Shown piece after piece: positions 80 through 58,178 of a DNA stretch of 64,000 nucleotides; position 1 is the first letter of the stretch; the number at the start of each line of letters is the position of its first letter. A program made the position numbers and the translations under genes. Origin of the DNA: the human T2T-CHM13v2.0 reference genome, Homo sapiens; the NCBI RefSeq assembly GCF_009914755.1, contig NC_060943.1; one strand, 5' to 3'. The notes under the pieces were generated by a model that searched no databases, had not been told where the DNA came from, and saw nothing but the letters and a program-made list of their open reading frames with translations.

Positions 80-357
80 ATTTTTTTTTAAGTGACAGGG
101 TCTCTCTCTCTCACCCAGGCTGGAGCACAGCTGGTATAATCATGGCTCACTGCAGCCTCGATCTCCTGGGTTCAAGTGATCCTCCCACCTCAGCCTCCTG
201 AGGAGCTGGGACCACAGGCGAGCACCACTATGCCTTTATTTTTTGTAGAGACGGGGTCTCGCTATGTTGCCCAGGCTGGTCTCAAACTCCTGGCCTCAAG
301 CGATCCTCCCACCTTGGCCTCCTAAAGTGTTGGGATTATAAGCATGAGCCACTGCAG
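80..357 (-). mobile_element. Alu (AluJ-like), antisense, ~200 nt upstream of exon 2
   Basis: Poly-T followed by the reverse complement of a dimeric Alu (ctgcagcctcgatctcctgggttcaagtgatcctcccacctcagcc). Confidence 0.9.
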
Positions 358-589
358 GAGCCTGAGGTCACATTGAAGGACAGACAGACCCTCACGGGAT
401 GTCGTGACTGGTTGCCTCTGGCTTTTTGGGCGAGCCTAGTCGGGTGGGGAACTCCAGCATCGGGTCAGGTGCTATCTGCCCAGGAGTGGGACTCCACATG
501 CCCCTTAAACTTCCTCCCACCATTCTGACCATGCCTGGCTCTGACCTCCCTTCTAGCTCCAGGACACGCGCGCCCCGAGCCTGGGAGGC

Positions 590-1060
590 ATGCTGAAGCC
601 AGGCGGCCGGCAGGATGAGTGTGAAAGAGGCAGGCAGCTCGGGCCGCCGGGAGCAGGCGGCCTACCACCTGCACATCTACCCCCAGCTGTCCACCACCGA
701 GAGCCAGGCCTCGTGCCGCGTGACTGCCACCAAGGACAGCACCACCTCGGACGTCATCAAGGACGCCATTGCCAGCCTGCGGCTGGACGGCACCAAATGT
801 TATGTGCTGGTGGAGGTCAAAGAGTCGGGAGGCGAGGAATGGGTGCTGGACGCCAACGACTCGCCTGTGCACCGGGTGCTGCTATGGCCCCGGCGGGCAC
901 AGGACGAGCACCCTCAGGAGGATGGCTACTACTTCCTGCTGCAGGAGCGCAACGCAGATGGAACCATCAAGTACGTGCATATGCAGCTGGTGGCGCAGGC
1001 CACAGCCACCCGGCGCCTAGTGGAGCGTGGCCTCCTGCCACGGCAGCAGGCGGACTTTGA
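590..1060 (+). other. Overlapping out-of-frame upstream ORF (156 aa) in exon 2
   Basis: ATG at 590 lies inside exon 2, 25 nt before the main ATG, in context ggcATGc (G at -3). It is open to TGA at 1058-1060. Translation is not demonstrated. Confidence 0.5.
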
Positions 1061-1454
1061 TGACCTGTGTAACCTCCCTGAGCTAACCGAGGGCAACCTC
1101 CTGAAGAACCTCAAGCACCGCTTCCTGCAACAAAAGATCTACACGTACGCGGGGAGCATCCTGGTGGCCATCAACCCCTTTAAGTTCCTGCCCATCTACA
1201 ACCCCAAGTACGTGAAGATGTATGAGAACCAGCAGCTGGGCAAGCTGGAGCCACACGTCTTCGCGCTGGCCGACGTGGCCTACTACACCATGCTCAGGAA
1301 GCGCGTGAACCAGTGCATCGTGATCTCGGGTGAGAGCGGCTCCGGCAAGACCCAGAGCACCAACTTCCTCATCCACTGCCTCACCGCCCTCAGCCAGAAG
1401 GGCTACGCCAGCGGCGTCGAGAGGACCATCCTGGGTGCTGGCCCTGTGCTGGAG
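615..1454 (+). CDS. MYO9B: MYO9B first coding exon (exon 2; exon spans 557-1454, 898 nt), aa 1-280: RA domain, start of motor domain, P-loop
   Basis: Translation [25 protein letters not shown]... is the myosin-IXb N-terminus. Myosin motifs [24 protein letters not shown] and GESGSGKT (1329-1352) are present. Acceptor ttctag|ctcc at 556/557; donor GAG|gtgagc at 1454/1455 (phase 0). Confidence 0.98.
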
Positions 1455-1516
1455 GTGAGCGGGGAAGCTGGTCGGTCTGTGGGAGGGGGCATTTGTTTGG
1501 AAAATGCGGGTTTCAG

Positions 1517-2115
1517 GCCAAGCTCGGTGGCCCACATCTATAATCCCAATGCTTTGGAAGGCTGAGGGAGGAGGATTGCTTGAGCCCAGGAGTTCAAGAT
1601 CAGCCTGGGCAACATAGCAAGACCTTTTCTCTACAAAAAAAAAATAATAATTAGCCAGGCAGGCATAGTAGTGCTCACCTGTAGTCCCAGCTGCTCAGGA
1701 GGCTGAGGCAGGAGGATCACTTGAGCCCAGGAGTTCGAGGCTTCAGTGAGCTATGATCATGCCACTGCACTCCAGCCTGGATGACAGAGAGAGACTCCAT
1801 CTCAAAAAAAAAAAAGAAAGAAATTTCAGGCTGGGTGTGGTGGCTCATGTCTATAACCCCAGTGGTTTTTGAGAGGCTGAGGCAAGAGGATCGCTTGAGC
1901 CCAGGAATTCAACATCAGCCTGGTCAACACAGCAAGGCCCCCTCTCTACAAAAAAAAAAAAAAAAGATTACCGAAGTGCGGTGGCACACATTTGTTGTCC
2001 CAGCTATTGGAGAGGCTAAGGCGGGAGGATCGCTTGAGCCCACGAGTTGGAGCTATGATTGCACTACTGCACTCCAGCCTGGGCAACAGAGACAGACCCT
2101 GCCTCTAAAGAGAGA
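1517..2115 (+). mobile_element. Two tandem sense Alus (AluJ-like) starting ~60 nt downstream of exon 2
   Basis: ggccaagctcggtggcccacatctataatccc... with A-tail near 1815; second copy from ~1828 to ~2115. Confidence 0.9.
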
Positions 2116-2124
2116 AAAAGTGGA

Positions 2125-3066
<942 letters not shown>

Positions 3067-47204: not shown

Positions 47205-48230
<1,026 letters not shown>

Positions 48231-57239: not shown

Positions 57240-58178
<939 letters not shown>

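What the first reader, a model, noticed from the sequence alone, without database searches (positions are those of the whole stretch)
80..2115. Exon 2 has circRNA architecture, and its circle encodes a wrap-around 447-aa chimeric ORF
Seen in sequence: the 898-nt exon 557-1454 sits between an antisense Alu ending ~200 nt upstream and sense Alus starting ~60 nt downstream. Established knowledge: inverted flanking Alus drive back-splicing, and I recall a circMYO9B being described (not verified here). Derived from sequence: joining 1454 to 557 keeps the MYO9B frame open (CTC CAG GAC ACG CGC GCC CCG AGC CTG GGA GGC ATG) and lands exactly in frame with the uORF ATG at 590, because 590-557=33. Translation from the native AUG would therefore give 280 aa MYO9B + LQDTRAPSLGG + 156 aa uORF = 447 aa. 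It would travel about 1.5 times round the circle and stop at TGA 1058-1060. The product would keep the RA domain and P-loop but lack switch I/II, the IQ motifs and RhoGAP, so it is a possible decoy protein (inference).
Basis: partly seen in the sequence, partly recalled or inferred. Interest (0 to 1): 0.8.

Follow-up and report, generated by a model that had tools for sequence, protein, structure and literature searches.

The report
Known MYO9B exon-2 circular RNA
This stretch is the start-codon exon of the myosin IXB gene, which is already known to form a circular RNA, and the long reading frame that runs round the circle is about what chance would give and has no evidence of being made into protein.

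Summary
Exon 557-1454 is 898 nt with AG/GT splice sites. An antisense Alu ends about 200 nt upstream and sense Alus start 61 nt downstream. Reading from AUG 615 round the circle gives 280 + 11 + 156 = 447 codons and stops at TGA 1058-1060.

The circle is already known. It is hsa_circ_0000907 (circMYO9B), listed as 898 nt and exonic, from MYO9B exon 2. Its junction was Sanger-sequenced, and it is RNase R-resistant and mainly cytoplasmic. Papers treat it as a microRNA sponge or protein scaffold.

The wrap-around ORF follows from 898 mod 3 = 1 and from GC3-rich codon usage (T at third positions 7.5%). 167 stop-free codons after the junction occur in 16% of synonymous shuffles. The tail matches no family or named protein and is predicted unfolded.

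The circle belongs to the "AUG circRNA" class, for which a genome-wide study found no translation. One 2026 meeting abstract contains "circMYO9B encodes", but I could not read it.

Verdict: a real, already known circle. The coding and decoy reading is unsupported but not excluded.

The parts
81..356 (-). Antisense Alu in intron 1, ending 200-216 nt upstream of exon 2. It starts with a T-run (the reversed poly-A tail) at 81-89.
   Evidence: arms 81-130, 132-235, 235-352/355; BLAST segment 81-340, minus strand.
557..1454 (+). MYO9B exon 2 (898 nt), the exon that circularises as hsa_circ_0000907 / circMYO9B. Back-splicing joins 1454 to 557.
   Evidence: length, AG and GT sites. RefSeq rows in the brief. 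Literature.
590..1060 (+). Out-of-frame overlapping upstream ORF (156 aa plus stop, 15.9 kDa). It is the only upstream AUG in the 156-nt leader of the linear mRNA, and it shares its frame with the post-junction read of the circle.
615..1454 (+). MYO9B codons 1-280: RA domain aa 18-113 (nt 666-953), start of the myosin head aa 149-280 (nt 1059-1454), P-loop aa 239-246 (nt 1329-1352).
557..1057 (+). The 167 stop-free codons read after the back-splice junction: 11 from the 5' UTR, then the upstream-ORF frame.
   Evidence: No family, no named relative, mean pLDDT 44.9.
1058..1060 (+). TGA that ends the wrap-around ORF. It is the first of four stops in that frame within 24 nt (1058, 1061, 1070, 1079).
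1516..1815 (+). First sense Alu in intron 2, starting 61 nt after the exon. It is the best predicted partner of the upstream antisense Alu.
   Evidence: I1, I3, I10; cofold gain -232.6 kcal/mol.
1829..2119 (+). Second sense Alu in intron 2.
   Evidence: gain -145.4 kcal/mol.
2675..2962 (+).
   Evidence: I2, I4; gain -190.1 kcal/mol.

Best explanation
The stretch is MYO9B exon 2, the exon that carries the start codon, with its flanking Alus. The exon is back-spliced (1454 joined to 557) into the already catalogued 898-nt circular RNA hsa_circ_0000907 (circMYO9B).

Shown: canonical splice sites, very long flanking introns (25.8 and 42.8 kb), and a close inverted Alu pair whose cross-exon pairing is predicted stronger than the competing same-intron pairings. 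Shown in the literature: a Sanger-verified junction, RNase R resistance, mainly cytoplasmic location, and reported action as an RNA (hnRNPU binding, microRNA sponging).

Inferred: back-splicing is helped by Alu pairing across the exon, by the long introns, or by both.

The 447-codon wrap-around ORF is real on paper but is a by-product. The exon length shifts the frame by one, and that frame is open for 167 codons because MYO9B codons rarely end in T. The circle most likely acts, if at all, as a non-coding RNA. The same alternative frame is more plausibly visited by ribosomes on the linear mRNA, where AUG 590 is the first AUG met by scanning.
For: - Anatomy.
- Pairing energies: -232.6 kcal/mol across the exon, against -155 to -205 for four same-intron partners.
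- Identity with the known circle: PMC7755777 Table 3 lists hsa_circ_0000907 as 898 bp, exonic (passages). PMC9325354 lists circMYO9B with hg19 coordinates spanning 898 nt (passage). PMC11671590 reports exon 2 origin, Sanger junction, RNase R and actinomycin D resistance, mainly cytoplasmic location and hnRNPU binding (passages).
- Single copy: exon 2 occurs once in the reference, so the junction is not a genomic duplication.
- ORF at chance level: P = 0.16 by synonymous shuffle, GC3 0.86, T3 0.075.
- Tail: no Pfam match for the one tail protein scanned; none of 29 scored candidates reached E <= 0.001; mean pLDDT 44.9 with 0 of 167 residues at 70 or above; 58% G/A/P/R.
- Class-level evidence against translation of start-codon circles: PMC6487579 (passages).
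Against: - A meeting abstract in Crit Care 2026;30(Suppl 1):327 (PMC13325606) holds the phrases 'circMYO9B encodes' and 'circMYO9B-encoded' (search listing only). Its text lies beyond the part that can be read, so somebody appears to claim a product.
- The circle is reported mainly cytoplasmic and keeps the host AUG with a purine at -3.
- The codon-order shuffle gives a borderline P = 0.05, and the mononucleotide model 0.01.
- I could not test cross-species conservation of the alternative frame, and I saw no ribosome-profiling or proteomic data.
- 520 sample-only candidates were left out of the protein search.
- The structure model was made without an alignment, which often gives low confidence anyway.
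Confidence: 0.77

Rival explanations
1. circMYO9B is translated without a cap from the host AUG 615, across the junction, into a 447-aa (48.4 kDa) chimera. The chimera has the RA domain, a P-loop fragment and a frame-shifted tail, and acts as a decoy for MYO9B partners.
For: - An ORF with an AUG crosses the junction.
- The circle is mainly cytoplasmic.
- AUG 615 has A at -3.
- The phrases 'circMYO9B encodes' and 'circMYO9B-encoded' occur in PMC13325606 (listing only).
Against: - ORF length is within chance.
- There is no DRACH enrichment (13 seen, 15.4 +/- 3.5 expected) and no identified entry element.
- 13 AUGs lie on the circle, 9 of them out of frame with MYO9B, so internal entry would not favour 615.
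- The tail has no relatives and no predicted fold.
- The motor piece is 135 of 679 profile positions and is unlikely to fold alone (inference).
- The RA-like extension of class IX myosins is reported not to bind Ras.
- The class-wide study found no translation of such circles.
- None of the tested spellings of '447 aa' occurs in the abstract's document.
Confidence: 0.08
2. The alternative frame is translated, but from the linear mRNA. Scanning ribosomes start at AUG 590, the first AUG of the transcript. They make or abort a 156-aa, 15.9-kDa out-of-frame product and so lower MYO9B output. The circle plays no part.
For: - AUG 590 is the only upstream AUG in the 156-nt leader.
- It has G at -3, lies 25 nt before AUG 615 and overlaps it.
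- It ends 445 nt downstream of AUG 615, so re-initiation at 615 is impossible (plus the established scanning model).
Against: - I saw no ribosome-profiling data.
- 5 papers hold both 'MYO9B' and 'uORF'. In the one I opened (PMC12859497), MYO9B is named once in a list of tested genes, and nothing there is about this upstream ORF.
- The peptide has no named relatives.
Confidence: 0.4
3. On biogenesis only: the flanking Alus are bystanders, and back-splicing of exon 2 depends on the very long flanking introns, as proposed for most start-codon circles.
For: - The introns are 25,759 and 42,818 nt. Both exceed the 6,500-nt 'long intron' cutoff of PMC6487579.
- That study finds AUG circRNAs mostly independent of inverted Alus and insensitive to DHX9.
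- Inverted Alu pairs within 2,300 nt flank 6 of 9 exons here, so they are not specific.
- Four same-intron sense Alus compete for the upstream arm.
Against: - Exon 2 has the closest inverted pair in the window, at 277 nt total.
- The cross-exon duplex is the strongest predicted.
- By the same paper's criterion (inverted Alus within 2,300 nt), this circle counts as Alu-dependent.
Confidence: 0.4

Closest known systems
hsa_circ_0000907 (circMYO9B)
   Same: Same gene, same exon, same length. It is listed as 898 bp and exonic, has hg19 coordinates spanning 898 nt, and is described as coming from exon 2 of MYO9B by back-splicing.
   Different: Nothing in the RNA itself. One paper states 890 nt against 898 nt in two others. 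The readable papers treat it as non-coding (hnRNPU scaffold, miR-4731-5p sponge). None that I could read describes the 447-codon ORF.
AUG circRNAs (Stagsted et al. 2019, PMC6487579)
   Same: The circle contains the host gene's annotated start codon and part of the true ORF, and it has very long flanking introns. Its junction-to-stop length is at chance level, as that study found for the class.
   Different: This circle also has a very close inverted Alu pair (277 nt), whereas the class is described as mostly without them. MYO9B is not named in that paper's main text, and its tables are supplements that I could not open.
Alu-paired exon circles (inverted Alu elements across a circularising exon)
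   Same: An antisense and a sense Alu flank the exon within 216 and 61 nt, with 81-88% complementary arms.
   Different: Dependence on the pairing is untested. Competing same-intron Alus lie 700 to 2,200 nt upstream.
Reported circRNA-encoded proteins (host AUG, ORF crossing the junction, unique C-terminal tail)
   Same: The layout is the same: host N-terminus plus a junction-specific tail.
   Different: No entry element, footprint, peptide or conservation is shown here. The tail is unusually long (167 aa) because it runs in a shifted frame through coding sequence.
Overlapping upstream ORFs in 5' leaders
   Same: AUG 590 is upstream of the main AUG 615, out of frame with it and overlapping it.
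   Different: At 156 aa it is long for an upstream ORF. Its use by ribosomes is untested.

Membership tests
Exonic circRNA hsa_circ_0000907 / circMYO9B | Single exon bounded by canonical AG acceptor and GT donor | tested here: met
   ttctag|CTCCAG ... CTGGAG|gtgagc.
Exonic circRNA hsa_circ_0000907 / circMYO9B | Length and origin equal to the catalogued entry (898 nt, MYO9B exon 2) | tested here: met
   898 nt here. 898 bp in PMC7755777. An 898-nt hg19 span in PMC9325354. Exon 2 in PMC11671590, which however says 890 nt. I did not lift the hg19 coordinates over.
Exonic circRNA hsa_circ_0000907 / circMYO9B | Back-splice junction reads, RNase R resistance | not testable with these tools
   Reported in PMC11671590 (passage; the data are in a supplementary figure that I could not see). 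PMC7755777 could not amplify it.
Alu-dependent circRNA | Inverted Alu pair in the two flanking introns, total distance under 2,300 nt | tested here: met
   277 nt. The same holds for 6 of 9 exons in the window.
Alu-dependent circRNA | Circle output depends on the pairing (arm deletion, DHX9 or ADAR sensitivity) | not testable with these tools
   Only predicted energies are available: the cross-exon duplex is the strongest of 7 partners tried.
AUG circRNA | Circle holds the annotated start codon of the host gene | tested here: met
   AUG 615 lies inside 557-1454 (RefSeq rows).
AUG circRNA | Long flanking introns (over 6,500 nt) | tested here: met
   25,759 and 42,818 nt.
AUG circRNA | Conservation of the circle in mouse | not tested
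Translated circRNA | AUG-started ORF that crosses the junction | tested here: met
   447 codons from AUG 615. Also 325, 246 and 222 codons from the in-frame AUGs 981, 1218 and 1290.
Translated circRNA | ORF beyond the junction longer than chance, or conserved | tested here: not met
   P = 0.16 by synonymous shuffle. Conservation could not be tested.
Translated circRNA | Cap-independent entry element (IRES or m6A sites) | tested here: inconclusive
   13 DRACH motifs against 15.4 +/- 3.5 in shuffles. No IRES predictor is available.
Translated circRNA | Junction-spanning ribosome footprints or peptides | not testable with these tools
   Reads and proteomes are not available. One unreadable abstract claims coding.
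Overlapping upstream ORF | Upstream AUG, out of frame, ORF overlapping the main start | tested here: met
   AUG 590 is frame +2 relative to 615 and its ORF ends at 1060.
Overlapping upstream ORF | Ribosome initiation at the upstream AUG | not testable with these tools
   No profiling data are available.

The most novel reading that the evidence does not exclude
circMYO9B is one of the rare start-codon circles that really is translated. Ribosomes entering internally use the MYO9B AUG, cross the junction and make a 48-kDa protein. That protein has an RA-like domain fused to a basic (pI 11.6), disordered, frame-shifted tail. It is a primate-specific, Alu-enabled product that modulates MYO9B/RhoA signalling independently of the motor. 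Some phenotypes ascribed to the RNA (angiogenesis, inflammation) would then be protein effects.
Probability: 0.07. Interest if true: 0.55.

Novelty: already known. Interest (0 to 1): 0.15.

Why it matters
As it stands, little. The circle is catalogued and has been studied in at least two dedicated papers. Its paper ORF is the kind that any ORF finder gives for a start-codon circle.

The check is useful in two ways. First, it shows that the long tail is a codon-usage by-product. Second, it shows that the same frame is opened by the first AUG of the linear mRNA. Any antibody, tag or peptide from that frame cannot prove circle translation unless it spans the junction or has the 48-kDa size.

If the product were real, it would be a clear case of an Alu-enabled, primate-specific protein from a gene linked to inflammatory bowel and coeliac disease. 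That disease link is stated in the abstract of PMC13622658, seen in the listing.

Tried and rejected
- **Rolling-circle (endless) ORF: rejected.** 898 mod 3 = 1, and the three frames hold 7, 1 and 9 stops.
- **Genomic duplication of exon 2 as a false source of junction reads: rejected.** There is one copy in the reference. The only other hit is the MYO9A paralogue, 70% identical over 336 nt.
- **Alternative frame as a real overlapping gene: no support.** There is no Pfam family, and none of 29 scored candidates reached E <= 0.001, with 520 sample-only candidates left out unscored. The single-sequence model has low confidence.
- **m6A-site enrichment: none**.
- **Rfam scan of the whole window:** it gave only two Metazoa_SRP matches, both inside Alu-like segments.
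- **Reading the 2026 meeting abstract: failed.** The held text stops at 300,000 of 839,874 characters. Phrase probes found no 447-aa wording and no 'MYO9B-1/2/3...' name.
- **Search for a described MYO9B upstream ORF:** 5 papers hold both words. In the one I opened, nothing is about this upstream ORF.
- **Not done: cross-species test of the alternative frame.** No mammalian genomes are on hand.
- **Not done: uniqueness of the junction peptide in the human proteome.**
- **Not done: search of the genome for the junction sequence.** This would have needed a typed joined sequence.
- **Not done: chromosome-wide empirical null for start-codon exons.** The fetch caps prevent it, and PMC6487579 reports that analysis.
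- **Supplements are closed.** I could not see Supplementary Fig. 3 of PMC11671590 (junction, RNase R) or the circRNA tables of PMC6487579. Either may bear on the identity of the circle and on whether circMYO9B was in that study's set.
Full report
**What is in the sequence**

- Window 557-1454 is MYO9B exon 2. It is 898 nt, with acceptor ttctag|CTCCAG and donor CTGGAG|gtgagc.
- RefSeq places exon 1 (98 nt) 25,759 nt upstream and exon 3 42,818 nt downstream.
- The coding part 615-1454 is exactly 280 codons, so the exon ends on a codon boundary.
- Because 898 mod 3 = 1, joining 1454 to 557 shifts the frame by one. The next codon starts at 557, ATG 590 is the twelfth codon, and the frame stays open to TGA 1058-1060.
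- From AUG 615 this gives 280 + 11 + 156 = 447 codons over 1.497 laps.
- The paper product would weigh 48.4 kDa.
- All three frames of the circle contain stops (7, 1 and 9), so there is no endless ORF.

**The Alus**

- An antisense Alu lies at 81 to about 356. Sense Alus lie at 1516-1815, 1829-2119 and 2675-2962.
- The arms are 81-88% complementary over 104-118 nt (pairs I1 and I3).
- I used one Alu copy of the window as a BLAST probe on chr19:17210501-17300000. It found 28 Alu-like segments in intron 1 (17 sense, 11 antisense) and 57 in intron 2 (32 sense, 25 antisense).
- The upstream antisense Alu therefore has competitors in its own intron. These are sense copies about 700 to 2,200 nt further upstream.
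- Predicted co-folding gains are -232.6 kcal/mol for the cross-exon pair 81-356 with 1516-1815. They are -155 to -205 kcal/mol for four same-intron partners. The cross-exon duplex is favoured but not alone.
- As a local control, 6 of the 9 MYO9B exons in the window have an inverted Alu pair within 2,300 nt total distance. Exon 2 has the closest, at 277 nt. It is also the longest exon and has the longest flanking introns. The last exon's downstream flank is cut by the window end.

**The circle is already known**

- 46 papers in the library hold 'circMYO9B' and 21 hold 'hsa_circ_0000907'.
- PMC7755777, Table 3, lists hsa_circ_0000907 as 898 bp and exonic. The authors could not amplify it (passages).
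- PMC9325354 lists circMYO9B = hsa_circ_0000907 at hg19 coordinates that span 898 nt (passage).
- PMC11671590 states that circMYO9B comes from exon 2 by back-splicing and that the junction was Sanger-sequenced. It reports resistance to RNase R and actinomycin D, a mainly cytoplasmic location and hnRNPU binding. It gives the length as 890 nt (passages; the junction data are in a supplementary figure that I could not see).
- PMC13547819 treats the circle as a sponge for miR-4731-5p (title and abstract).
- Exon 2 is single-copy in the reference, so the junction cannot come from a genomic duplication.

**Is the ORF more than chance?**

- The frame read after the junction takes the third base of one MYO9B codon plus the first two bases of the next. 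A stop in it therefore needs a T-ending codon.
- Only 7.5% of the 280 codons end in T (GC3 = 0.86).
- Shuffling synonymous codons among positions, which keeps the protein and the codon usage, gives at least 167 open codons in 16% of 20,000 trials (median 67).
- Shuffling codon order gives 5%. A mononucleotide model gives 1%.
- The coincidence with ATG 590 is a 1-in-3 event, and that ATG would be read only as an internal methionine.
- The ORF also depends on the exact exon length. A circle 8 nt shorter at its 5' end would run into TGA 616 (frame offset 2).

**What the product would be**

- The first 280 aa hold the RA domain (aa 18-113, E = 1.7e-15) and the first 135 of 679 profile positions of the myosin head (aa 149-280), including the P-loop at 239-246.
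- Solved myosin motors align only over this stretch, for example residues 88-223 of a 762-residue Dictyostelium motor.
- Switch I lies in exon 3.
- That such a fragment would not fold alone is my inference.
- The 167-aa tail is 58% Gly/Ala/Pro/Arg with pI 11.6. It matches no Pfam family.
- The 156-aa upstream-ORF part of the tail, searched on its own, found no named protein. None of 29 scored candidates passed, and 520 sample-only candidates were left out.
- The tail's single-sequence model has mean pLDDT 44.9, pTM 0.14 and no residue at 70 or above.
- For the decoy idea, a study of the class IX head says the N-terminal extension has a Ras-binding-domain-like topology. [quoted passage not shown]

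**Translation**

- The circle fits the 'AUG circRNA' class of PMC6487579.
- That study found junction-to-stop lengths close to chance and no conservation of the stop or of codon positions. It judged junction-spanning footprints not to come from translating ribosomes.
- It also found no circRNA-derived peptide with an FDR below 0.2 among 35 million spectra, and no product from three over-expressed AUG circles (passages).
- MYO9B is not named in its main text, and its tables are closed supplements.
- On this circle there are 13 AUGs, 9 of them out of frame with MYO9B.
- DRACH motifs are not enriched (13 seen, 15.4 +/- 3.5 expected).
- Against my reading: the search index shows the phrases 'circMYO9B encodes' and 'circMYO9B-encoded' once each in a 2026 volume of meeting abstracts (PMC13325606). 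The held text ends before that abstract.
- None of '447aa', '447 aa', '447 amino', '447-aa', '447-amino', 'MYO9B-447' or 'MYO9B-1/2/3' occurs with it.
- So a coding claim for some circMYO9B product seems to be in print at abstract level. I cannot say what it is.

**The linear mRNA**

- AUG 590 is the only upstream AUG in the 156-nt leader.
- It has G at -3, is out of frame with AUG 615 and overlaps it, and ends 445 nt downstream of it.
- Its frame is open to the 5' end of the mRNA.
- By the scanning model, it should capture some ribosomes that then cannot make MYO9B.
- This is the more ordinary way for the alternative frame to be read. It also means that only junction-spanning or size evidence can prove circle translation.
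- 5 papers hold both 'MYO9B' and 'uORF'. In the one I opened, MYO9B is named once in a list of tested genes, with nothing about this upstream ORF.

**Verdict**

- The circle is real and already known.
- Biogenesis by Alu pairing is plausible but untested, and long introns are a live alternative.
- The 447-aa ORF is a correct calculation with no support as a gene product, and the decoy function is speculative.
- Interest is low. The main value is the caution about the shared frame and the pointer to the unreadable 2026 abstract.

Noticed in passing
window 590-1060 (+), with exon 1 at L001:200-297: AUG 590 is the only upstream AUG of the linear MYO9B mRNA leader (156 nt). It is out of frame with the main AUG 615 and overlaps it, has a purine at -3, and gives a 156-aa ORF. 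Its frame has no stop back to the 5' end of the mRNA. It is a classical overlapping upstream ORF that could damp MYO9B translation.
   Followed up: partly
window 555-562: There are two acceptor AGs 6 nt apart, at 555-556 and 561-562. Use of the second would give an 892-nt exon, also 1 mod 3, with two fewer codons after the junction.
   Followed up: no
literature on window 557-1454: One paper gives circMYO9B as 890 nt, while two others give 898 nt. With a circle 8 nt shorter at its 5' end, the post-junction frame would stop at TGA 616.
   Followed up: partly
window 1058-1081: There are four stops within 24 nt in the post-junction frame (1058, 1061, 1070, 1079). They fall where MYO9B uses several T-ending codons in a row, right at the start of the myosin head match.
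   Followed up: no
window 47864-48011 (-) and 57925-58072 (+): The only Rfam matches in the window at gathering score are Metazoa_SRP. Both lie inside Alu-like segments (47854-48140 minus strand, 57789-58081 plus strand), so they reflect Alu-like sequence and are not SRP RNA genes.
   Followed up: yes
chr19:17210501-17300000 (L001, L003, L002 plus window): There are 107 Alu-like segments of 100 nt or more in 89.5 kb, so the locus is very Alu-dense. Inverted pairs flank most MYO9B exons in the window.
   Followed up: partly
G000:C15:69864646-69864981 (-): The only other genomic match to exon 2 is the MYO9A paralogue, 70% identical over the motor-coding 336 nt. I did not check whether its start-codon exon gives a similar wrap-around frame.
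   Followed up: no
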